This document shows, in pieces, positions 3,345-11,920 of a DNA stretch of 17,492 bases (position 1 is its first letter; every line of letters begins with the position of its first letter). Under the pieces are notes generated by a model that saw only the letters and a list, made by a program, of their open reading frames with translations, was not told the DNA's origin and ran no database searches. Both the position numbers and the translations under genes were made by a program. The stretch is from Candidatus Heimdallarchaeota archaeon (GTDB lineage Archaea > Asgardarchaeota > Heimdallarchaeia > Heimdallarchaeales > Heimdallarchaeaceae), in NCBI GenBank assembly GCA_030668825.1, contig DAOVET010000049.1, positions 1 to 17,492 of the forward strand, given 5' to 3'.

Positions 3345-4655
3345 TTAGTCTGAACTCTCTACGTCAACACAACCTTCTGGTGTTATTGCAAATACAGCTT
3401 CTGATTCTGGTAAATATGGTGAGTCATAAATTCTAATAATTCTCTTCTCGCCTTTGGATTTTCTTAAATAGAATCTAGTTATAGCCCAGTGACCAAGGAT
3501 ATTTCCACCAATCGCTTGAGTTGGATCACCAAAAAAGGCTGCGGGATTTGACTGAACCTGGTTTGTGATTGCAATAGCTACATTATAGGTGTCTGCTAAC
3601 CTTCCAAGAATCCCTAAATGATGGTTGATCGTTTGTTGTCTCTCAGCAAGAGTTCCTCTTCCCGCATATTCTGCTCTAAAATGAGCTGTAGCAGAATCAA
3701 GAGCAACAAGCCCATATTCATCTTTGTGGTTATAAAACAATTCAAGTAATCTTTCTGCTAGAGTCATTTGATGATCTGAGTTATACGCTCTTGCGTAAGT
3801 TATGTCCCTAAGAACATCCTCAAAATTCTTCTCCCAACCTAAATCATTTTGTAATTTACCATGAATTGCTTTAATTCTACTAGGAGAAAATGTTCCCTCA
3901 GTATCTATAAATACAGCTTTCTTTCCAACTCCTCCTAATTCTGGTGGAAGTTGAACAGTTACACAAAGCTGGTGACATAATTGTGATTTTCCAGAGCGGA
4001 AAGGTCCAAAAAGTTCTATAGTCTCTCCAAGCCTTACTCCAGCAACATCTAATTCCTCAATAGTGGTTAACGCATCTAATGCTTTAATTCCATAAGAAAA
4101 AGCTGGAGATCCCTTCTGTTTTTCCATTATTTCAAAGGCGTTAATAAACTCAATTCCTCCACGTACCTCAGTAAGAGATTGCTTGTATTTTTTTGCAGCG
4201 CTTTCTGTAATCCCATACTTCTCTTCTAATTCTCTTATAGGAGTTGTTTCAAGAAGATAAACGTTTAATCCCTTCTCTCTTAACATATCTGCAGTAGTTT
4301 TCCCTACCCCTGGTAAATCTTCTAAACCGATTTCTTCTTTGAAAAATCTATACTTTGGTACTATAGAACTTATTTCCAACCTAATTTTCTTCGCAATTGC
4401 TCTTTGAATCCCCATTGTTTGTAATTCAATGAGTCTTGTTGTCATTAATCCCTCAATAGTTGTGATTTCATTCTCTATTAAAATTTCCAGGGTTTTTTTT
4501 CCTAAACCTGGAACATCCTTAAGTTTAAGCTCAACATCTACTTTTTTCTTCTTTGAATTCTCTTGTTCTTCTATCTCAATTAGATGTTCTTCGTATTGTT
4601 CTCCAATTTCCTTTGAATCAGGCTTAGTGGTTTCTTCCTGTGTTTCTTTGCTCAT
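3345..4655 (-). CDS. radA: DNA repair and recombination protein RadA (Rad51 family) with duplicated N-terminal HhH domain
   Basis: Walker A GPFRSGKSQ, FIDTEGTF, ARAYNSDHQ, Walker B VALDS, FRAEYAGRGTLAERQQ, TNQV, GGNILGH and FxxA motif FINA. Start placed at ATG 4655 (MSKETQ) rather than 4712 because a TATA box lies at 4693-4700. Confidence 0.95.
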   Translation of the reverse strand: MSKETQEETTKPDSKEIGEQYEEHLIEIEEQENSKKKKVDVELKLKDVPGLGKKTLEILIENEITTIEGLMTTRLIELQTMGIQRAIAKKIRLEISSIVPKYRFFKEEIGLEDLPGVGKTTADMLREKGLNVYLLETTPIRELEEKYGITESAAKKYKQSLTEVRGGIEFINAFEIMEKQKGSPAFSYGIKALDALTTIEELDVAGVRLGETIELFGPFRSGKSQLCHQLCVTVQLPPELGGVGKKAVFIDTEGTFSPSRIKAIHGKLQNDLGWEKNFEDVLRDITYARAYNSDHQMTLAERLLELFYNHKDEYGLVALDSATAHFRAEYAGRGTLAERQQTINHHLGILGRLADTYNVAIAITNQVQSNPAAFFGDPTQAIGGNILGHWAITRFYLRKSKGEKRIIRIYDSPYLPESEAVFAITPEGCVDVESSD

Positions 4656-4692
4656 ATTATGCACCACTGCTATTACTCCGAAGAGGTTAGAG

Positions 4693-4700
4693 TATTTAAA
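4693..4700 (-). promoter_or_regulatory. Probable TATA box of radA
   Basis: TTTAAATA on the minus strand about 38 nt upstream of ATG 4655. Confidence 0.5.
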
Positions 4701-4758
4701 GATAATACTCATTTTACACTTACTATTCCTTAAATTTAACTTCTTCGAAGGGAGACCG

Positions 4759-4899
4759 TATTTTGAAACACAAATCTTCTCTATCCATCAACAAGAACAC
4801 ACGACTCAAGAAGACAAACTCTTAGAAGACATGATCGCTCTGGTCACCTCTTTTGCAGGAAGGCTACACAGACAACGGAGAGGAAAAGCACCGCCATAA
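4759..4899 (+). pseudogene. tnpA: IS607 tnpA (serine recombinase) C-terminal fragment
   Basis: YFETQIFSIHQQEHTTQEDKLLEDMIALVTSFAGRLHRQRRGKAPP* matches the IS607 TnpA C-terminal helix (E-L-x-EDL-x-x-I-x-TSF-x-GRLY-x-x-R). No start, HTH or catalytic domain upstream. Confidence 0.85.
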
Positions 4900-4917
4900 A
4901 AAAAGGATTTTATCGAG

Positions 4918-4925
4918 TTTAAATA
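4918..4925 (+). promoter_or_regulatory. TATA box of tnpB copy 1
   Basis: AGTTTAAATAGC about 30 nt before the TTG start, conserved in copy 2. Confidence 0.65.
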
Positions 4926-4955
4926 GCATTTTGCGGATATACTTAGTGAGATAAA

Positions 4956-6884
4956 TTGGTCACACAAACAGCAACCAAACTACAAACACTCATTCCCACC
5001 ACTTCAAAGGGAGTAATGAGAAGTTATCAAGTAGTGCTCAAATGCGCTGACCAATCCCAACGAGAAGAGATTAACAAGAGGATTAGAACACTAGAAGAAC
5101 AGCAAGATCAGCTGCTCACTCCTCAAGTAATTAAACAAGCTGTGGAAATGTACAGAACCAATCCCAAAGAAGGATTCTTCACCCGCCAACTCTGCAAAGA
5201 AGTAGGCCAAAGCCCGAATATAGCGGAAAGTGCCTTCCATTGGCTGTACATCGCTATCAAAGGCAAGATAGATAAGGAGAAGAAAGCACAAGGGCTCTTT
5301 AATTTTATGTTGAAGAATCCTCAGCAGCTGATAGAATGGCTGATTTTCGGTCGTTCACCTTATACCGAAAGCAGTTTAGAAAACTTTTGGCGACTAAAAA
5401 GAAGATATATTATTAACCTCCTCACCAGTACTAGATTACAAACCGATTCCTATTGGAGAAAAAAAAATAAAACTATCTATACCTCCGATTTTCTACAATT
5501 GAACGCACTTCTTCCAACGTGTTCGCAACCTGAAGTCCTGCAAGCTCTAGATGATGCACTGTTTTACTACAATCATGAATTTTCGCTCATACCACAACTT
5601 ACTAAGAATCAGAAAGCATTTCTGAAGAAACTCAAACTGTTGAAAAAAGAACAATCAACTGTTGTCCCTTTTCTCACTTCATGGATCAATAGCCCTCAAG
5701 ATTCTCGATGGAAAAGTCTCAAAATATTAGCTGAACAACTAGCTACAATTATAGGTAAACCTTCCCGAAAACTCTTTTCAGCAGTTAGACTGATAGTCGT
5801 TTTCACACTCTTTGATCATTACATGCAGAGTGTCCCTCAGTTAGTCAAGTCTCTTCCTATAGCTAATGTTGTTCCCCCACCATTTAAACGTAAAAAGAAA
5901 GGAAGATTGCCAATCAAACTATTAATGAAAAAAAACTATGTTATCACCCGCCAAGGGAATGCTCAAGAATTGACTGACCAAGTAAAGAAACAAGGATGGA
6001 CTGAACTCGGTTTTCCAAGAAAAGGGAAACAAAGGTTAACTGCTCAGGTTCATTTTCCACCAAAAGTAGTAGAGTATATACAAAATGGTGCCCACATCAA
6101 AGTGTTCCAAGTAAACAGTGGACAAGCGCCTAGTTGCAAACCTCGGGTGGATGTAGTACTAGAAGGAACCCATACTTGTTTCCATTCTTCCACCCTTCTC
6201 CACCGCTATCTTGCTAAGATTCCTGCAAAGAAAACTTCCATCCTTGGAGTAGATATTAACCGACTAGGACAACATATGGTAGTGTTTAACACCTCGGTAG
6301 CTCTCCCTCCAGATTTACTAGATTTAGCTGCACACTATGATCATCTTAGTACAAAAGTCCTAGATGAGCTTAACAGAGGTTTACTCCGTAAACGAAAGGA
6401 GTATGATACTCATGAGTGTTGTAAACTCAAGGGTGAACTCAATCGCGTCTATACTCGTCGTCATCGTATCCTTCGAGAGATTACTCGTCTTCTCCCCCAC
6501 TTTCTAGCGGCTGTTTTGGTGAAAAAACAGACAAAAATACTCAAGATTGAACGCTTAACTGCTGATCCCACTGGCACTAAAGGTGCCTTAGCTAAAGCTA
6601 TTTACACCATGCCTGACAGTTTGTTCATTTACAAAAAAGCTGTGTGGTTAGCTTCTTTGGAGTTAGGCTATGATGTGCAGTTAGAAGCTGTTCGTCCTTA
6701 TCACACCAGCACCATTCATTACGGGTGTGGAGGTGTGCTTGCTCGTCAAAAAGGTCAGTATGATGTTGCTCCTTGTAAGAAATGTGGACAACAGGTCAAC
6801 ACTCACTTCAATGCTGCTCATAACATTGCTTCCCTTCCAGGTACCCTCCTTCCTCCCGATTCCTTCCCCTCACCGCACGTGTAG
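4956..6884 (+). CDS. tnpB: Large TnpB-family RNA-guided protein (642 aa), RuvC D-E-H variant
   Basis: RuvC-I ILGVDIN (D433), RuvC-II KIERL (E532), TS-x-x-HYGC...CKKC zinc finger and RuvC-III NTHFNAAHNI (H617 where Asp is canonical); lies downstream of an IS607 tnpA remnant. Confidence 0.9.
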   Translation: MVTQTATKLQTLIPTTSKGVMRSYQVVLKCADQSQREEINKRIRTLEEQQDQLLTPQVIKQAVEMYRTNPKEGFFTRQLCKEVGQSPNIAESAFHWLYIAIKGKIDKEKKAQGLFNFMLKNPQQLIEWLIFGRSPYTESSLENFWRLKRRYIINLLTSTRLQTDSYWRKKNKTIYTSDFLQLNALLPTCSQPEVLQALDDALFYYNHEFSLIPQLTKNQKAFLKKLKLLKKEQSTVVPFLTSWINSPQDSRWKSLKILAEQLATIIGKPSRKLFSAVRLIVVFTLFDHYMQSVPQLVKSLPIANVVPPPFKRKKKGRLPIKLLMKKNYVITRQGNAQELTDQVKKQGWTELGFPRKGKQRLTAQVHFPPKVVEYIQNGAHIKVFQVNSGQAPSCKPRVDVVLEGTHTCFHSSTLLHRYLAKIPAKKTSILGVDINRLGQHMVVFNTSVALPPDLLDLAAHYDHLSTKVLDELNRGLLRKRKEYDTHECCKLKGELNRVYTRRHRILREITRLLPHFLAAVLVKKQTKILKIERLTADPTGTKGALAKAIYTMPDSLFIYKKAVWLASLELGYDVQLEAVRPYHTSTIHYGCGGVLARQKGQYDVAPCKKCGQQVNTHFNAAHNIASLPGTLLPPDSFPSPHV

Positions 6885-6967
6885 GGGACCCACTCAAACG
6901 ACGGTTAGACGCCTTTTGGCAAGTTTAACCAAGTTTCATAACGTGTGTATTTTGAAAGTAATGAACT
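6865..6967 (+). ncRNA. Predicted omega-RNA (reRNA) 3' scaffold plus guide, copy 1; 5' end unknown and probably inside tnpB
   Basis: Hairpin 6865-6888 with loop CGCAC, hairpin 6903-6930, terminal GTGTG 6943-6947 complementary to the loop; predicted guide starts at 6948 (TATTTTGAAAGTAATGAACT). Confidence 0.75.
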
Positions 6968-7007
6968 GATTAAATGAACTGGTTTTTTATCGAGAAAATT
7001 ACTTTTT

Positions 7008-7517
7008 TTAGAAATCTATCCCTTTTCTTGCTTCAATACCCTTGGTGTAGGGATGTTTAATTTCTTTAACATCAATGATTGTATCAGCTTTTGATTTTAG
7101 TCCTTCTGGAAATTTTCTTCCAGTCAAGATAATCTCATCACTAACATAGGGAAAGATTCCCTTCAATTGATCCCAAGAAATTAATCCAAATGAGAGAGCA
7201 ATTCCTGCTTCATCCAAAAGAAGTATCTCAACTTGAGCTTTCTTTAGTTCTTTTTCTAGAACACTGATACCATTGTTTATCAAAGCTATATATTCATCTT
7301 TTTGATCCTTCGATTGATAAAACCTATCTTTCCCAAACGTAAACCACCTTACATTATCCTTATCCTTAAAAAAATTACATTCTCCACAGTTTTTACCAGT
7401 TTTTAGGAATTGAGCTACTAATATAGATTTTCCTTCTCTTTGCTTTTGAAAAATATGACCTATACCTGTTGTTGTTTTTCCTTTTCCTTCTCCAACTATG
7501 AAGGTAATCTTAACCAT
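7008..7517 (-). CDS. cobO: Cob(I)yrinic acid a,c-diamide adenosyltransferase (CobA/CobO/BtuR)
   Basis: GEGKGKTT P-loop, QFLK, LLDE, LTGR and KHPY...ARKGIDF C-terminus. Start likely ATG 7517 (MVKITF); the ORF track gives 7550. Confidence 0.9.
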   Translation of the reverse strand: MVKITFIVGEGKGKTTTGIGHIFQKQREGKSILVAQFLKTGKNCGECNFFKDKDNVRWFTFGKDRFYQSKDQKDEYIALINNGISVLEKELKKAQVEILLLDEAGIALSFGLISWDQLKGIFPYVSDEIILTGRKFPEGLKSKADTIIDVKEIKHPYTKGIEARKGIDF

Positions 7518-7619
7518 TATCTGAAAAATAGATTTATCTCTTTTAAACATTGACTAAAAGAGTCAGTGTAATCTAAATTAAAACATATTTAGATACACTG
7601 GCTTGGAAAGTTCAAAGAC

Positions 7620-8081
7620 TCAGATTTGTATTTCTTCTTGTTCAAGATTGGTTTCATTGTTTTTACGTTTCTTTTCTTCCTTTTCCCTTATTTGTCTATT
7701 CTTTTCTTCTTCTAAATGTTTTAGCCCTTTGTCTTTCAATTTTCCAACTCCACCACAAACTGGACAAACATCTTTTCTAGCTTCTTTTTTTGGTCCAGCA
7801 TCTACATATCCCGTTCCATAACAATAAGGGCAATTTGTCCCTATAACCTTAGCACCTGATCTTGCATAAATATATGATAATAGTAAAAATAACGCACCTA
7901 ATCCAATAGTGATGAAACCGGCTATTTCTAGTCCTCTTGCATCAATTCCGCTTTCCTCAAAAACAGCAACAGCTTTATCATACATATATAGTCCTACAAT
8001 AAGCAGAATACCACCAAATAGAAAGATGGAATATTGGATAACATAGATTCTTATATTAGAAACTCTTCTTTTCCCTTTCAT
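7620..8081 (-). CDS. Membrane protein with two TM helices and a DnaJ-type zinc finger
   Basis: Two hydrophobic segments, then CPYCYGTG and CPVCGGVG (CxxCxGxG twice) and a charged tail. Confidence 0.75.
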   Translation of the reverse strand: MKGKRRVSNIRIYVIQYSIFLFGGILLIVGLYMYDKAVAVFEESGIDARGLEIAGFITIGLGALFLLLSYIYARSGAKVIGTNCPYCYGTGYVDAGPKKEARKDVCPVCGGVGKLKDKGLKHLEEEKNRQIREKEEKKRKNNETNLEQEEIQI

Positions 8082-8175
8082 TATTGTTTGATTATTTGTT
8101 TAAACGCTGAAAAATTTTGTGCTTATGAAGAGAATGAATAAAGAAGAAATTACCAGAATCTCTATCTGGTTCTTC

Positions 8176-8727
8176 TTATCTTCCTGCTCGTTTCAAAGTT
8201 TCATTTTTTATTGCATTTCCTAGAAGAGTTTTAACTAATCCCCCTACTCCTTCTCCAGTTAATGCAGATGTTTCAAGATATCTACAGCCTAGTTTTCTAG
8301 ATATTCTTTTTGCATCTTCTCTTAAAACTTCACGTTTTGCATCAGTTTTATTACCAACAATTGTAATATCTAAATCAAGATTTTGTTGTCTAAGTTCCCT
8401 AATCCAGTTTGCACACTCTTTGAATGATTCTCTCCTAGATACATCAAAAATAATTGCTGCAGCATTGGTTCCTGAATAAAGAAGATTCCTGACTACTCCA
8501 AATCTTTGTTGTCCTGCCATATCGTAAAACAGTGCTACTGCTTTTCCTTTGCCTGTTTTAAATGAATAAGTGTGGAATTCAGCTCCTATAGTTGGCTTAT
8601 AATGTTTTAGAAAAATATTTTCTGTTATTCTTTTGCAAATTGTTGTTTTTCCCGATCTACCAGGACCACATATGGCTAACTTGTAAATATCGTAATCTCG
8701 AAATTTAACTTCCACTTTAGAATTCAT
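8176..8727 (-). CDS. Rab/Ras-superfamily small GTPase
   Basis: G1 GPGRSGKT, G2 PTIG, G3 DMAGQQRF, G4 NKTD, G5 ETSAL; no C-terminal prenylation Cys. Confidence 0.93.
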   Translation of the reverse strand: MNSKVEVKFRDYDIYKLAICGPGRSGKTTICKRITENIFLKHYKPTIGAEFHTYSFKTGKGKAVALFYDMAGQQRFGVVRNLLYSGTNAAAIIFDVSRRESFKECANWIRELRQQNLDLDITIVGNKTDAKREVLREDAKRISRKLGCRYLETSALTGEGVGGLVKTLLGNAIKNETLKRAGR

Positions 8728-8764
8728 GCAGTTAGCACCAAGATAAACCTCTAAAAAATTAATA

Positions 8765-8866
8765 AAAGACGATGTAATACTAAGCGCACATCATGAAACT
8801 TGGTTAAACTTGCCAAAGGCTTTTTAACCGTCGTTTAGGTGGATCCCCTCATGTGCGATGAGGGGA
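8765..8866 (-). ncRNA. Predicted omega-RNA 3' scaffold plus guide, copy 2
   Basis: Perfect 9-bp hairpin TCCCCTCAT-CGCAC-ATGAGGGGA (8866-8844), hairpin 8829-8802, terminal GTGCG (8789-8785) complementary to the loop; predicted guide starts at 8784 (CTTAGTATTACATCGTCTTT). Confidence 0.78.
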
Positions 8867-10778
8867 AAGGATCAGAAGGAAGGAGGAAACCTTGGAGGGA
8901 TGCAATATTTTGAGCAGCATTTTTATGAGTGTTGACACGTTGACCACACTTATTACAAGGGGCAACATCATATTGACCTTTTTGGCGAATAAGTGAACCA
9001 CCACACCTATAATGAATTGAGCTAGTATGATAGGAAGGGACTGCTTCTAATTTTATATCATAACCTAACTCTAGTGAAGCTAACCACACAGCTTTCTTAT
9101 AGATGAACAAACTATCAGGCATGGTGTTAATAGCTCTAGCCAAAGCACCTCTGGTACCAGTGGGATCAGCAGTTAGGCGTTCAATTTTTAACACTTTACA
9201 TTTATTTTTCACCAACACTGCTGCTAGAAAGTGAGGAAGGAGACGGGTAATCTCACGCATGATTCTACTGCGACGAGAATAAACCCGATTGAGTTCACCC
9301 TTGAGTTTACAACTTCCCTGAGTATTATACTCTTTCCGTTTTCTGAGATATCCTCTGTTAAGTTCTCTCAGCACCTTTGTACTGAGATGATTATAGTGAT
9401 TTGCTAATTCTAATAAATCTAGAGGGAGAAAGATTGGAACATTAAATGTCACCATATGTACTCCTAAGCGGTTAATATCTAGTCCTAGAATTGACATTTT
9501 CCTCTTTGCAGGAATATTCGTAAGATAGCGATTAAGAAGCTTAGAAGAATGAAAACAATCCAAAGTTCCCTCAAGAACCACATCTACCCTAGGTTTATAA
9601 TGAGGTGCTTTACCACTGCTTACTTGAAAGATTTTAATATTTGTTCCAGTGTTAATATACTCTAATATTTTTGGTGGAAAGTGAACCTGAGCAGTTAGTC
9701 GCTGTTTTCCCATTCTTGGAAAACCCAGTTCAGTCCAGCTTTGTTTTCTTACTTGTTTTGTCAAATCTTTTGCATTCCCTTGACGGGCTATTACATAGTT
9801 TTTTTTCATTAATAGTTTGATTGGCAATCTTCCTTTCTTTTTACGTTTAAATGGTGGGGGAACAACATTAGCTATAGGGAGAGCCTTAACTAACTGAGGG
9901 ACACTCTGCATATAATGATCAAAGAGTGTGAAAACGACTATCTGCCTAACTGCTGAAAAGAGTTTTCGGGAAGGTTTACCTATGATTGTAGCTAATTGTT
10001 CTGCGAGTTCTTTGAGACTTTTCCATCGAGAAGGTTGAGGACTATTGATCCACGAGGTGAGAAAAGGTATTACAGTATTCTGTTCCTTCTTCAAGAGTTG
10101 GAGTTTATTTAACAATGCTTGCTGATTCTTTGTCAGTTGTGTGAGAATTGAGAATTGATTCTGTTGATAGAACAACACATCATCTAGAGCTTGAAGAACA
10201 TCAGATTGTGAGTATGTTGGAAGGAGAGAGTTGAATTGATGGAAGTTAATGAAATAGCTGTTTTTGTGTTTTTTTCTCCAATAAGAATCGATTTGAGTTC
10301 TCGTACTGGTGAGGAGGTTAATAATATATCTTCTTCTTAGTCTCCAATACTTTTCCAAACTTCTCTCAGTATAAGGTGATCGACCAAAAATTATCCATTC
10401 CACTAACTGTTGAGGATTTTTTTGAATGAACTCTAGTAATCCATGAACTTTCTTTTCCTTGTCCATCTTGCCTTTGATGGCGATATATAACCAATGGAAA
10501 GCACTTTGTGCAATGTTGGGGCTTTTTCCCACAATTTTGCAGAGTTGACTGGTAAAGAATCTTTCTTTCGGATTATTTCTGTACAATTCCACAGCTTGTT
10601 TAATCACTTGAGGAGTAAGTAATTGATGTTGTTGATATTCTAGATCTCTTATCCTCTGGTTTATTTCTTCTCGTTGGGATTGATCTACACACTTCAGCAC
10701 CACTTGATAGCTTCTCATCACTCCTTTAGAACTAGAGGGACGAAGAGCTTGTTGCTTGGTTGCTGTTTGCGTGACCAT
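8835..10778 (-). CDS. tnpB: Large TnpB-family RNA-guided protein (647 aa), RuvC D-E-H variant
   Basis: ILGLDIN, KIERL, HYRC...CNKC and NTHKNAAQNI (H618); colinear paralogue of 4956..6884, roughly 80% identical by eye. Confidence 0.9.
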   Translation of the reverse strand: MVTQTATKQQALRPSSSKGVMRSYQVVLKCVDQSQREEINQRIRDLEYQQHQLLTPQVIKQAVELYRNNPKERFFTSQLCKIVGKSPNIAQSAFHWLYIAIKGKMDKEKKVHGLLEFIQKNPQQLVEWIIFGRSPYTERSLEKYWRLRRRYIINLLTSTRTQIDSYWRKKHKNSYFINFHQFNSLLPTYSQSDVLQALDDVLFYQQNQFSILTQLTKNQQALLNKLQLLKKEQNTVIPFLTSWINSPQPSRWKSLKELAEQLATIIGKPSRKLFSAVRQIVVFTLFDHYMQSVPQLVKALPIANVVPPPFKRKKKGRLPIKLLMKKNYVIARQGNAKDLTKQVRKQSWTELGFPRMGKQRLTAQVHFPPKILEYINTGTNIKIFQVSSGKAPHYKPRVDVVLEGTLDCFHSSKLLNRYLTNIPAKRKMSILGLDINRLGVHMVTFNVPIFLPLDLLELANHYNHLSTKVLRELNRGYLRKRKEYNTQGSCKLKGELNRVYSRRSRIMREITRLLPHFLAAVLVKNKCKVLKIERLTADPTGTRGALARAINTMPDSLFIYKKAVWLASLELGYDIKLEAVPSYHTSSIHYRCGGSLIRQKGQYDVAPCNKCGQRVNTHKNAAQNIASLQGFLLPSDPFPSSHMRGST

Positions 10779-10807
10779 TCTTTCTCATTATCTTATCCAC
10801 AAAAAGC

Positions 10808-10815
10808 TATTTAAA
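10808..10815 (-). promoter_or_regulatory. TATA box of tnpB copy 2
   Basis: AGTTTAAATAGC on the minus strand about 30 nt before ATG 10778, same core as copy 1. Confidence 0.65.
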
Positions 10816-10826
10816 CTTGGTAAAAA

Positions 10827-10937
10827 TCAGTTCTTTGAATGTGTTTTTCCTCTTCTCTGTCTTTTTGTTCTTACTGCGAACGTATCCTATGATTACTTTA
10901 GTCTAATGGTTATCTTCTTCCTCTCACTTATTTTTTG
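10827..10937 (-). pseudogene. tnpA: Highly degraded IS607 tnpA remnant
   Basis: Minus strand reads TKVIIGYVR, +1 frameshift, VRTKRQ (compare the serine recombinase motif IGYARVSTxxQ), joined directly to RRGKTHSKN* (compare copy 1 RQRRGKAPP*). Confidence 0.65.
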
Positions 10938-11059
10938 TACTAAGCGGTTACTTGAAACCATATGTTAATACAATTGTGAGAACATAACTAGGATAATTAT
11001 GCTTTATCAGCCATATTTCTTGCTGAATTCTTAAATAATAATGCTGAGTAAGTTGATGT

Positions 11060-11920
11060 ATGAGTTTTGAGTTCAAGAAAATTGCAGTAATTGGTTCGGG
11101 AACAATGGGAAGCGGTATTGCAATGGTTTTAGCAAAAGCTGGAATTAACGTTAGTCTCCATGATGTAAGTGAAGAATATCTAGAAAAAGGAAAGGAACAA
11201 ATAGATAAATTTCTCAAGGGAAGTGTGAAGAGGGGAAAAATAACAGAGGAAGAAGCCAATCAGGTAAAAAGTAAAATTTCCTTTAATGTTGATTTAGCTG
11301 CATCTACAAAAGATGTTCAATTAGTAATCGAAGCAATCATTGAAGAATCTAAAGAAAAGAAAAAATTGTTTACAGAGCTTGATGAAATATGTGAAAAAGA
11401 TGTCATCTTTGCGAGTAACACTTCTGCAATTAGCATAACTGATCTTGCAATGGTTACGAATAGACAAGAACTATTTTTAGGACTTCATTTCTTCAATCCA
11501 CCATCGTTGATGAAATTAGTTGAAGTAATTAAAGGAAATAAAACAAATGATGAAACTGTTAGTAAAATGATGTCCCTCTGTCAAAAACTGGGTAAAACAC
11601 CAGTACCTTCAAACGAAGCTCCTGGCTTCATTGTTAATAGATTGCTTTGGGTTTTCCTGAATGAATCCTATAGACTAATAGAAACAAAAGTTGCGGAAAA
11701 AGAAGATATAGACACTGCAGTAAAACTTGGACTTAATCATCCAATGGGGCCGTTTGAACTTTCAGATTACATAGGTTTGGATATCATGCTAGATATTGGA
11801 AGTTACATAGCAACTAAGTATGGTGAAATGTATAAACCAGCTCCACTTCTAAAGAAAATGGTTGAAAAGGGTAAATTGGGTAGAAAATCTGGCGAGGGTT
11901 TCTACAAATATTCTTCATAG
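11060..11920 (+). CDS. hbd: 3-hydroxybutyryl-CoA / 3-hydroxyacyl-CoA dehydrogenase
   Basis: VIGSGTMGSGIA Rossmann motif, IEAIIE, ASNTS, GLHFFNP, PGFIVNR, HPMGPFEL, LGRKSGEGFY. Confidence 0.95.
   Translation: MSFEFKKIAVIGSGTMGSGIAMVLAKAGINVSLHDVSEEYLEKGKEQIDKFLKGSVKRGKITEEEANQVKSKISFNVDLAASTKDVQLVIEAIIEESKEKKKLFTELDEICEKDVIFASNTSAISITDLAMVTNRQELFLGLHFFNPPSLMKLVEVIKGNKTNDETVSKMMSLCQKLGKTPVPSNEAPGFIVNRLLWVFLNESYRLIETKVAEKEDIDTAVKLGLNHPMGPFELSDYIGLDIMLDIGSYIATKYGEMYKPAPLLKKMVEKGKLGRKSGEGFYKYSS

What the first reader, a model, noticed from the sequence alone, without database searches (positions are those of the whole stretch)
4755..10948. Each TnpB element carries ACCG plus the seed of its own guide at its left boundary (self-targeting signature)
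Seen in sequence. Copy 1 right end reads GTGTG|TATTTTGAAAgtaat (6948-6957) and its left boundary reads gACCG|TATTTTGAAAcacaa (4755-4768). Copy 2 (minus strand) right end reads GTGCG|CTTAGTAttac (8784-8778) and its left boundary reads aACCG|CTTAGTAcaaa (10948-10938). Two unrelated guides each match 10 or 7 nt starting exactly at guide position 1, each preceded by the same ACCG, each at the point where tnpA is cut off. Established: the TnpB guide is the DNA flanking the right end, the TAM lies 5' of the target, and IS607 inserts through a 2-bp crossover without target duplication. Inference: TAM = ACCG with a probable CG crossover core. Model A: these TnpBs bind seed-only sites about 100-110 bp upstream of the divergent neighbours (radA, hbd) and 160-190 bp upstream of tnpB, acting as RNA-guided regulators, as TldR proteins do with short seeds. 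Model B: the duplications are scars of a TnpB cut at the empty site repaired by abortive gap-filling from the right end, giving 5'-truncated, tnpA-less, cleavage-resistant copies. A third, more speculative option is an unknown insertion route that makes variable target duplications with 5' truncation.
Basis: partly seen in the sequence, partly recalled or inferred. Interest (0 to 1): 0.93.

Follow-up and report, generated by a model that had tools for sequence, protein, structure and literature searches.

The report
Repair scars beside truncated TnpB transposons
Two transposon copies that have lost their left end each sit beside a short repeat of their own target DNA, which looks like a fossil of the transposon's RNA-guided nuclease cutting an empty site and the cell repairing it incompletely.

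Summary
Both tnpB elements in the window lack the left end and most of tnpA. Each has ACCG plus the first 10 (copy 1) or 7 (copy 2) bases of its own right-flank target at its left junction.

They also occur in metagenome contigs of related populations.

The family is a divergent IS607-type element of a sediment archaeon. ACYG is its target/TAM, and CG or TG is its crossover core.

Seven of the 10 duplicated bases of copy 1 (TTTGAAA) are also the tnpA sequence at the break, so the junction is a 7-nt microhomology.

The same signature appears at about five more loci in the ~64 copies examined. Two of these are confirmed by empty alleles. Truncation depth ranges from about 1 to 636 nt, and the duplication is always 5-11 nt.

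Best reading (about 0.62): a break inside the target of an empty allele, most likely made by TnpB, was repaired by copying the occupied allele from the right end inward and closed by end joining.

Nothing supports the regulator model (A) as the origin. I found no description of such scars in print.

The parts
4755..4758 (+). ACCG, the target/TAM motif left of copy 1. It is original flank, not element.
   Evidence: The empty allele in G013 reads GGGAGACCG|TATTTTGAAAG. ACCG or ACTG lies left of the LE in 18 of 26 LE-bearing copies.
4759..4768 (+). Partial duplicate of copy 1's target (TATTTTGAAA, guide positions 1-10). Bases 4762-4768 (TTTGAAA) are at the same time tnpA sequence, making a 7-nt microhomology junction.
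   Evidence: Full-length tnpA copies read CGTTTGAAACACAAAT at this point.
4762..4899 (+). 3' remnant of tnpA (last 45 codons plus stop) of an IS607-type serine recombinase.
   Evidence: 80% identity to residues 150-194 of the L011 TnpA. L011 TnpA scores 170 bits on NF033518, IS607 family transposase, cut-off 110.
4918..4926 (+). Conserved TTTAAATAG upstream of tnpB, a TATA-box-like candidate promoter retained by the truncated copies (inferred).
   Evidence: Conserved in all 20 aligned copies. Function not tested.
5016..6884 (+). tnpB copy 1: 622 aa, intact, a divergent large TnpB with D413 / E512 / H597 at the RuvC motif positions.
6873..6947 (+). Conserved structured 3' segment (candidate omega-RNA scaffold end) and right end. 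The closing stem CGCACGU/ACGUGUG ends at the last element base, 6947.
   Evidence: one compensatory change in copy 2. No Rfam family matched.
6948..6967 (+). Full target / guide-template of copy 1 (TATTTTGAAAGTAATGAACT).
   Evidence: It continues uninterrupted from ACCG in the empty alleles.
8765..8784 (-). Full target / guide-template of copy 2 (CTTAGTATTACATCGTCTTT on the minus strand).
8785..8860 (-). Right end and structured 3' segment of copy 2.
8835..10706 (-). tnpB copy 2: 623 aa, intact, 79% identical to copy 1.
10779..10937 (-). Degenerate tnpA 3' remnant plus the tnpB upstream region of copy 2.
10938..10944 (-). Partial duplicate of copy 2's target (CTTAGTA, guide positions 1-7).
   Evidence: Metagenome contigs skip 8777->10938, with 7-9 bases fitting both sides.
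10945..10948 (-). ACCG, the target/TAM motif left of copy 2.
   Evidence: Empty alleles in G012 and G018 read GTAACCG|CTTAGTATTACATCG.

Best explanation
The two elements are immobilised, 5'-truncated copies of an IS607-type transposon: MerR-HTH serine recombinase TnpA, a large TnpB, and a 3' guide-RNA scaffold.

In this family the element sits between ACYG (the target of TnpA, and by inference the TAM of TnpB) and the roughly 20 nt that become the guide.

Proposed sequence of events:
1. A full-length or LE-bearing copy occupied the site.
2. One genome copy became or was empty (ACCG|target), by TnpA excision or because it never had the element.
3. A double-strand break was made inside the target, most likely by TnpB with its own guide. 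A characterised IS607 TnpB cuts at about nt 16 and nt 22.
4. The right break end is fully homologous to the occupied allele. It invaded and copied leftwards through the right end, the scaffold and tnpB into tnpA.
5. The left break end carries a non-homologous tail of target bases. It was joined to the nascent strand by end joining or microhomology annealing (TTTGAAA for copy 1).

The product is ACCG + the first 5-11 target bases + an element lacking its left end + the complete target. Such copies have no LE and no TnpA, so they cannot be excised. The left site has too few matching bases to be re-cut.

Shown: the structure, the empty alleles, the microhomology, recurrence at other loci, and the asymmetry (always the left end lost, always 11 nt or less kept).

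Inferred: that the break was made by TnpB, that the template was a sister or homologous occupied allele, and the order of the steps.
For: (1) Empty alleles join ACCG directly to the full target at both window sites, at two further signature loci, L008 and L014, and in metagenome contigs. The left repeat is therefore retained target, and the right copy was regenerated.

(2) Copy 1's junction lies in a 7-nt identity between target positions 4-10 and tnpA. The G013 allele at copy 2's site joins through TTAG. L008 joins through CT.

(3) Recurrence, from the scans of 53 loci and 64 loci:
- L001: 10 nt.
- L002: 7 nt.
- L100: 5 nt, same site as L002 in another species. That element is only 83% identical to window copy 2, while the ~150 nt of right flank in the same alignment are about 95% identical.
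- L014: 10 of 11 nt.
- L008: 9 of 10 nt.
- L099: 7 nt after ACCA.
- Mini-elements L179 and L183: 5 nt each.
- L022: 5 nt after ACTG.
Truncation points lie at about 1, 5, 10, 495, 546, 600 and 636 nt into the element.

(4) Null: no match of 9 or more in 2754 non-self pairs. P(5 or more) is 1.3% per locus.

(5) All retained stretches are 5-11 nt. That is shorter than the 16/22-nt cut positions measured for an IS607 TnpB (PMC11061315, passages).

(6) Canonical copies show no duplication. This matches the statement that IS607 makes no target-site duplication and reseals donor sites scarlessly (bioRxiv 10.1101/2023.11.20.567912, passages).

(7) DSB-triggered recombination with an occupied sister chromosome is the demonstrated role of TnpB in IS605 (PMC10055086, passages).

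(8) The protein is a bona fide TnpB/Cas12f fold with strictly conserved D, E and H at the RuvC positions.
Against: No direct evidence that TnpB made the break.

The third RuvC residue is His, not Asp, in every family member. Nuclease activity is therefore unproven. PMC10691335 (passages) infers activity for such clades but did not test this one.

Copy 2's junction shows no clear microhomology (0-1 nt), and its parent sequence is unknown.

Several truncated copies lack the signature: L125, L172, L024 and L093.

The 5-nt cases at intact left ends (L179, L183, L022) are individually weak. Across 23 LE-bearing copies, LE positions 2-8 match the own guide only slightly more than other guides do (2.30 vs 1.89, permutation p 0.026, driven by L008).

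No full-length allele at either window site was seen in the 25 genomes or the 4 runs examined.

Ploidy and recombination habits of this archaeon are unknown.

L014's right copy differs from its left copy at target position 1 (T vs C), and its right end reads AG rather than CG. This is unexplained.
Confidence: 0.62

Rival explanations
1. Two-step route without a nuclease. Microhomology-mediated unequal sister exchange or template switching occurs between the right-flank target and an internal tnpA sequence. This makes a tandem [full element]-[partial target]-[truncated element]. TnpA then precisely excises the full element, leaving ACCG|partial target|truncated element|target.
For: It yields exactly the observed structure and uses copy 1's 7-nt TTTGAAA identity. 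TnpA excision is efficient and scarless in IS607.
Against: It needs two rare events per locus. Copy 2, L099 and L008 have only 0-2 nt of microhomology. None of about 60 loci shows two right ends in the same orientation. It does not explain why retained stretches never exceed 11 nt.
Confidence: 0.1
2. Reader's Model A. The ACCG+seed sites are functional. These TnpBs bind the seed-only sites upstream of radA, hbd and their own genes and act as RNA-guided regulators, like TldR.
For: TAM plus 7-10 matching bases is retained next to intact tnpB genes in promoter-proximal intergenic DNA. The RuvC-III Asp is replaced.
Against: The sites are leftovers of targets that were already there before insertion. 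The site differs between the window and G013 (7 vs 5 nt), and the G013 tnpB is broken: its longest frame is 562 aa. The D-E-H motif is clade-wide and also present in full-length mobile copies with TnpA, so it is not specific to the immobilised ones. This model does not explain the 5' truncation or the microhomology. It is a possible consequence of the structure, not its origin.
Confidence: 0.06
3. RNA-templated repair or target-primed copying. The tnpA-tnpB-scaffold-guide transcript, held at the target by TnpB, serves as the template for a host polymerase or reverse transcriptase. This would give LINE-like 5' truncation with short target duplications.
For: 5' truncation with variable short duplications is the classic signature of target-primed copying. 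The RNA carries the guide and so regenerates the target at the right junction.
Against: No reverse transcriptase lies in or next to the elements. Truncation points range from 1 nt to 636 nt into the element, including positions upstream of tnpA and in the LE, which need not be transcribed. DNA-templated repair needs no extra factor.
Confidence: 0.06
4. An unknown insertion pathway of this family, such as aberrant TnpA activity or another transposase acting in trans, that makes staggered cuts, variable target duplications and left-end loss.
For: Duplications of 5-11 nt flanking an insertion resemble target-site duplications.
Against: The duplication always starts exactly at the canonical ACYG| insertion point. 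The right junction is always canonical, and the left junction falls at arbitrary internal positions lacking any end sequence. Serine recombinases exchange at a 2-bp core without duplication.
Confidence: 0.06

Closest known systems
IS607-family transposons with TnpB homing (CboIStron/IS607: bioRxiv 10.1101/2023.11.20.567912; IS605 homing: PMC10055086)
   Same: Serine-recombinase TnpA with an HTH domain (NF033518). tnpB lies downstream. A structured 3' RNA segment ends at the right end. The guide is the right flank. A short motif left of the LE doubles as TnpA target and TAM. A 2-bp core is shared by both junctions. Canonical copies have no duplication.
   Different: The target/TAM is ACYG with a CG or TG core, rather than TGGG with GG. 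TnpB is about 620 aa with a long helical insertion, and has D-E-H instead of D-E-D. The host is an uncultured sediment archaeon. The window copies carry partial target duplications and lack the LE, which the published model does not describe.
Abortive gap repair of cut-and-paste DNA transposons in eukaryotes (origin of internally deleted P, Ac/Ds and Tc1/mariner derivatives and MITEs; e.g. PMC3814204, search listing and abstract only; the P and Ac/Ds examples are recalled)
   Same: A break at an emptied site is repaired by copying the sister copy. Synthesis aborts, and the ends are joined at microhomologies. The result is defective, non-autonomous copies.
   Different: There, the break is left by the transposase itself and both ends are homologous, so deletions are internal. 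Here the break is inferred to be RNA-guided and offset into the target. Repair would then be one-sided, the left end is lost, and a piece of target is duplicated.
TldR, the TnpB-like nuclease-dead repressors (bioRxiv 10.64898/2026.09.22.753285, abstract only)
   Same: Immobilised tnpB relatives that keep a guide RNA and a TAM-adjacent partial match in promoter regions.
   Different: TldRs have lost catalytic residues and transposon context as a clade, and target other genes. Here the proteins are indistinguishable from those of mobile copies, and the 'target' is a remnant of their own insertion site.
5'-truncated LINE insertions with target-site duplications
   Same: Truncation from the 5' side, an intact 3' end, and short variable duplications.
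   Different: No reverse transcriptase. The duplication starts at a fixed motif-defined point. The likely template is DNA.

Membership tests
IS607 family insertion sequence | Encodes a small serine recombinase TnpA with an N-terminal MerR-like HTH | tested here: met
   Full-length relatives (L011, L016, L017, L019 and others) carry it. L011 TnpA scores 170 bits on NF033518 (cut-off 110). The window copies keep only the last 45 codons (copy 1) or a degenerate remnant (copy 2).
IS607 family insertion sequence | Same 2-bp core dinucleotide at both junctions and a short conserved target motif | tested here: met
   ACCG pairs with GTGCG and ACTG pairs with GTGTG in LE-bearing copies. The base after the right end is T in 26 of 26. 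Window copy 1 is mixed: left CG, right TG.
IS607 family insertion sequence | No target-site duplication | tested here: not met
   Met by canonical copies. Not met by the two window copies or by L008, L014 and L099, which carry 7-11 nt partial duplications. I read this as a secondary repair product, not as a property of transposition.
IS607 family insertion sequence | Conserved left and right ends | tested here: not met
   The right end is present in both window copies. The left-end motif (ACTGAGGAG..AAAACTTATCCAATCTTACC) is absent from both.
TnpB (RNA-guided nuclease, Cas12 ancestor) | RuvC fold with a zinc-ribbon/TNB domain; overall TnpB/Cas12f architecture | tested here: met
   AF2 model pLDDT 90.6. 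Foldseek top hits are Cas12f, ISFba1 IS607 TnpB 8iaz, ISDra2 TnpB 8h1j and Fanzor2, all at probability 1.0 but with TM scores of only 0.2-0.48. Pfam TNB domain scores 25-28 bits, near its cut-off. NCBIfam guided_TnpB scores 23.5 against a cut-off of 100.
TnpB (RNA-guided nuclease, Cas12 ancestor) | Catalytic D-E-D triad in RuvC I/II/III | tested here: not met
   D413 and E512 are conserved. The third position is His597 (N-T-H-x-N-A-A) in all intact copies tabulated (about 50 of 62 rows; broken or contig-end copies were not scored), in the 40-50% identical subfamilies, and in 31 of 31 distant homologues where the motif was found. D-to-H clades are described and presumed active in PMC10691335. 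The positions in the 3D model were not measured.
TnpB (RNA-guided nuclease, Cas12 ancestor) | Guide RNA scaffold encoded at the 3' end, guide read from the right flank, TAM 5' of the target | tested here: inconclusive
   A conserved structured segment ends at the right end, with one compensatory pair. No Rfam match. No RNA data. The TAM is inferred from flanks and empty alleles only.
TldR (nuclease-dead TnpB-derived repressor) | Clade-specific loss of catalytic residues and of transposon context, with guides matching promoters of other genes | tested here: not met
   The same D-E-H motif occurs in mobile full-length copies. The partial match is to the element's own former target.

The most novel reading that the evidence does not exclude
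Right-end-primed, guide-directed copying is a regular, TnpA-independent way in which TnpB elements are fixed in archaeal genomes. Each imprecise homing event creates an unexcisable tnpB gene that still carries its promoter and guide scaffold. Beside it lies an uncleavable TAM+seed site that the ribonucleoprotein can still bind. This would be the ready-made starting material from which RNA-guided regulators (TldR-like) and other domesticated TnpB/Cas12 systems arise. The scars would also show that the His-variant RuvC of this archaeal clade is an active nuclease in vivo.
Probability: 0.12. Interest if true: 0.85.

Novelty: new variant of a known kind. Interest (0 to 1): 0.7.

Why it matters
TnpB homing (cut the empty site, recopy the transposon) has been shown in laboratory bacteria for IS605 and is inferred for IS607. 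Natural genomic traces of it have not, to my knowledge, been described.

These junctions would be such traces, found in an uncultured sediment archaeon. They:
- give the target/TAM (ACYG) and crossover core of a divergent family without any experiment;
- suggest that a His-for-Asp RuvC variant is active in vivo;
- offer a concrete, testable origin for some of the very many tnpA-less 'solo' tnpB genes;
- predict an inherent asymmetry of RNA-guided homing, in which the left break end carries a target-derived flap. That asymmetry could be tested directly and may matter for TnpB-based genome editing with templates.

Tried and rejected
Chance: rejected by the non-self guide controls and by the empty alleles.

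Assembly artefact: rejected.

ACCG as the first bases of the element: rejected, because empty alleles keep ACCG or ACTG next to the target.

'All truncated copies carry the seed': rejected. L013, L094, L118, L097, L096, L020, L025 and L116 turned out to have short left ends with internal tnpA deletions. L024, L093, L098 and L104 remain unclear. L125 and L172 are truncated without a seed.

A general 'memory' of targets in LE positions 2-8: the signal is weak (p 0.026, driven by L008) and I make no claim from it.

N-terminal-only tnpB fragments, searched as possible mirror-image products: 5 of the 6 fetched lie at contig ends and are uninformative.

Short right-end-only fragments: L158 and L005 are degenerate with an unclear junction. 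L159 and L160 lie at contig ends.

No empty allele for L099 was found in the 25 genomes.

Rfam: 0 matches at gathering threshold.

First AF2 run with 31 close relatives: poor model (pLDDT 65). It was replaced by the 62-sequence run.

No RNA holder was listed for the stretch, so nothing can be said about expression.

Contigs cannot show rare alleles. The absence of a full-length allele at the window sites is therefore not evidence.

Literature: searches found no paper describing partial target duplication or left-end truncation as products of TnpB homing. Supplements were not available and might hold such observations.

The Asgard assignment is only my inference from gene content (Ras-family GTPase, Rad51-type RadA). 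It was not tested.
Full report
**What is in the window**

Window positions 4755-10948 hold two copies of one element in opposite orientation. They lie between radA (3345-4712, minus strand) and a 3-hydroxyacyl-CoA dehydrogenase gene (11060-11920, plus strand). Between the two copies are a corrinoid adenosyltransferase, a small ORF and a Ras-family GTPase.

Each copy has an intact ORF of about 620 aa (5016-6884 plus strand; 8835-10706 minus strand; 79% identical). Downstream of each ORF is a conserved 60-110 nt segment. The two copies stop being alike exactly at ...AACGTGTG|TATTTTG and ...GATGTGCG|CTTAGTA.

Upstream of each ORF are about 110 nt of conserved non-coding DNA with a TTTAAATAG box, and then a remnant of another gene.

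**What the element is**

Sixty-one genomes related to the window's genome were searched with the protein. All 24 other genomes of the same genus have the family, often in many copies. The window's own genome has five matches.

Full-length copies measure about 2.7 kb from left end (LE) to right end (RE). Upstream of tnpB they encode a 196-aa protein with a MerR-like HTH and a serine-recombinase core (..VIGYARVSASKQ..). That protein scores 170 bits on NCBIfam NF033518, 'IS607 family transposase', cut-off 110.

The large ORF hits only the Cas12f1-like TNB domain in Pfam, at about threshold, and falls below NCBIfam's TnpB cut-offs. An AlphaFold2 model built on 62 homologues is confident (pLDDT 90.6, pTM 0.79). 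Its Foldseek matches are Cas12f proteins, the IS607 TnpB ISFba1 (8iaz), ISDra2 TnpB (8h1j) and Fanzor2. All have probability 1.0, though TM scores are low (0.2-0.48) because of a long helical insertion.

The clade is small: 162 representative clusters in 1.84 billion proteins.

The last about 75 nt fold into a conserved structure. Its closing stem uses the final seven bases of the element, and copy 2 has one compensatory change in it. No Rfam family matches.

So this is a divergent IS607-type element whose guide RNA should read the DNA right of the RE.

**Target motif and crossover core**

In 26 copies with a recognisable LE, the four bases to the left of it are ACCG (12 copies) or ACTG (6 copies; three more have ACTG displaced by a base or two). 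This co-varies with the RE: ACCG goes with ...GTGCG and ACTG goes with ...GTGTG. The first base right of the RE is T in 26 of 26.

This is what a serine recombinase exchanging at a 2-bp core (CG or TG) inside a preferred site ACYG|T would leave. It parallels the GG core and TGGG target/TAM shown for a clostridial IS607 element (bioRxiv 10.1101/2023.11.20.567912, passages read). That paper also states that IS607 makes no target-site duplication and reseals the donor site exactly.

Copy 1 reads GGGAGACCG TATTTTGAAA CACAAATC... at its left junction and ...GTGTG TATTTTGAAAGTAATG at its right junction. Copy 2 reads GTAACCG CTTAGTA CAAAAAAT... and ...GTGCG CTTAGTATTACATCG.

Neither copy has the LE motif. 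Copy 1 begins inside tnpA at codon 150 of 196. Copy 2 begins about 55 nt further in.

As a control, upstream regions were paired with the guides of other loci. The best ACCG+prefix match never exceeded 7 in 2754 pairs. Exact runs of 5 or more occurred in 1.3% of 4028 pairs.

Contigs assembled independently in two studies, with 0-1 differences from the window, bridge all four junctions.

**The predicted empty alleles exist**

Searching the genus with the outer flanks showed that in most species the radA and hbd flanks are about 1.84 kb apart, instead of 6.19 kb.

At copy 1's site:
- the closest relative, G013 (flank 96% identical), reads ...GAAGGGAGACCG|TATTTTGAAAGTAATGAACTG...;
- five other species read the same with ACTG, and one reads ACGG.

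At copy 2's site:
- G012 and G018 read ...TTTCAAGTAACCG|CTTAGTATTACATCGTC...;
- G024, G009, G010 and G006 differ by one or two bases.

Metagenome contigs of related populations also skip exactly 2189 nt (4756->6946) and 2160 nt (8777->10938).

ACCG is therefore flank. The left repeat is what remains of the original target. The insertion equals a left-truncated element plus a second, complete copy of the target.

**New evidence on mechanism**

Full-length tnpA genes read ...CAAACGTTTGAAACACAAAT... at the point where copy 1 begins. Bases 4-10 of copy 1's duplicated target (TTTGAAA) are therefore identical to the tnpA sequence at the break. The junction is a 7-nt microhomology, and only TAT is unambiguously duplicated.

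G013 also carries an element at copy 2's site. Its junction is ACCG CTTAG|ATTAAAG..., which lies 36 nt further into tnpA and sits at a TTAG shared by target and tnpA. That element is only 83% identical to window copy 2, while the ~150 nt of right flank in the same alignment are about 95% identical, and its tnpB is broken. It is either an independent event at the same site or an orthologue reshaped by gene conversion and a later microhomology deletion.

**Recurrence elsewhere**

I examined 53 family loci with at least 200 nt of upstream sequence, and later 64 including metagenome contigs.
- L014 (G021) reads ACCG CAATAGAATAA, joined to tnpA about 495 nt into the element. Its guide is TAATAGAATAATG. 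Empty alleles in G015 read AGCG|CAATAGAATAATG.
- L008 (G012) reads ACCG TTTTAATGCT, joined to the LE at about its 11th base. Its guide is TTTTACTGCTTT. Empty alleles were found in five species.
- L099 (G010) reads ACCA TAAACGA, joined near the LE start. Its guide is TAAACGATGTG. No empty allele was found.
- Two of three ~370-nt mini-elements from metagenomes, and L022, have their first five LE bases replaced by the first five guide bases. These 5-nt cases are individually weak.
- Full-length copies and most copies with an LE show no such match.
- Several truncated copies do not show it either (L125, L172, L024).

In every positive case the left end is the one lost, the right junction is canonical, and 5-11 target bases are kept.

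**Most likely mechanism**

These features fit repair of a double-strand break located inside the target of an empty allele, with an occupied allele as template.

The whole target lies to the right of the element in the template. The right break end is therefore homologous up to its tip. It can invade and copy leftwards through RE, scaffold and tnpB.

The left break end ends in target bases that have no partner next to ACCG in the template. If that flap is not removed, the nascent strand is instead joined to it, at a microhomology when one is available.

This explains the asymmetry, the variable truncation depth, the regenerated target, and the short retained stretch.

A characterised IS607 TnpB cuts at nt 16 of the non-target strand and nt 22 of the target strand (PMC11061315, passages). 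Retention of 11 nt or less after trimming is consistent with that.

DSB-triggered recopying from a sister chromosome is the demonstrated function of TnpB in IS605 (PMC10055086, passages).

The nearest precedent is abortive gap repair of eukaryotic cut-and-paste transposons.

**Caveats**

Nothing here shows that TnpB made the break.

The family has His where the third RuvC Asp should be (N-T-H-x-N-A-A). Asp413 and Glu512 are kept. This holds in every intact copy, in 40-50% identical subfamilies and in 31 of 31 distant homologues where the motif was found. PMC10691335 (passages) reports D-to-H RuvC-III clades, some almost restricted to archaea, and infers that they remain nucleases. This has not been tested for this clade.

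Copy 2's junction has no evident microhomology.

Copy 1 has CG at its left junction and TG at its right junction. L014's right copy of the target differs at position 1. Mixed junction dinucleotides were seen experimentally when element and target cores differ, but I cannot reconstruct the history here.

**Rivals**

- Unequal exchange followed by excision. Microhomology-mediated unequal exchange would give a tandem [full][partial target][truncated] array, and TnpA would then excise the full copy. This gives the same product but needs two rare events. It has little microhomology to work with at most loci, and no intermediate was seen among about 60 loci.
- RNA-templated or target-primed copying would also give 5' truncation with duplications. 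There is no reverse transcriptase, and truncation points include the LE.
- Model A does not explain the origin of the structure. The sites pre-existed as full targets, they are not conserved between the window and G013, and the proteins do not differ from those of mobile copies. Residual binding of TnpB to ACCG+10 nt remains possible and untested.

**Novelty**

Four literature searches, plus passages of the main TnpB homing, IS607 and classification papers and a 2026 review, gave no description of partial target duplications or left-end loss as products of TnpB homing. Supplements were closed.

I rate it a new variant of a known kind: a known system (IS607/TnpB homing) with a previously undescribed, interpretable by-product.

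Noticed in passing
window 5016-6884 and 8835-10706; all family loci: The whole TnpB clade has His in place of the third RuvC Asp (N-T-H-x-N-A-A), and an H-C-C-C rather than C4 zinc ribbon (H568, C571, C587, C590). The proteins are about 620 aa because of a roughly 300-aa helical N-terminal/REC region. The clade is rare: 162 clusters in 1.84 billion representatives.
   Followed up: partly
L179, L183, L184 (metagenome contigs): Mini-elements of about 366-371 nt. They carry about 40 nt of left end, a TATA-like box, a long conserved structured segment and the right end, but no tnpA or tnpB. They look like guide-RNA-only, MITE-like derivatives that would depend on TnpA and TnpB in trans.
   Followed up: partly
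L100 (G013:C102) versus window 8785-10948: Elements at the same site in two sister species are 83% identical (74-89% per 200-nt bin), while about 150 nt of right flank in the same alignment is about 95% identical. This suggests independent insertions into one hot site or ectopic gene conversion among paralogous copies.
   Followed up: partly
L093 and L104 (G013): Two copies lie beside tRNA-like sequences. Long similar stretches (..GCTAGATCACTGCCCC..) occur on both sides of the element, which could mean insertion into or next to tRNA genes with a longer duplication.
   Followed up: no
L172 (G020:C1, locus 1534-1821): A 70-nt right-end-only fragment sits in inverted orientation directly against the 5' part of another copy's tnpB. 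One element's guide would therefore match another element's gene.
   Followed up: partly
L085 (G007:C10): Another family member lies about 260 nt from the hbd flank, in the opposite orientation to window copy 2. The radA-hbd intergenic neighbourhood appears to be a repeated landing zone.
   Followed up: no
window 8176-8727 (-): A Ras-family small GTPase (Pfam Ras, E 2.7e-35) lies next to a Rad51-type RadA of 455 aa with HhH repeats. This fits an Asgard-type archaeon from cold-seep or marine sediment. Taxonomy was not tested.
   Followed up: no
L014 (G021:C39): The right end reads GTGAG and the adjacent target starts with T. The retained left copy and the empty alleles start with C. This is a junction change that neither simple copying nor simple recombination explains.
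   Followed up: no
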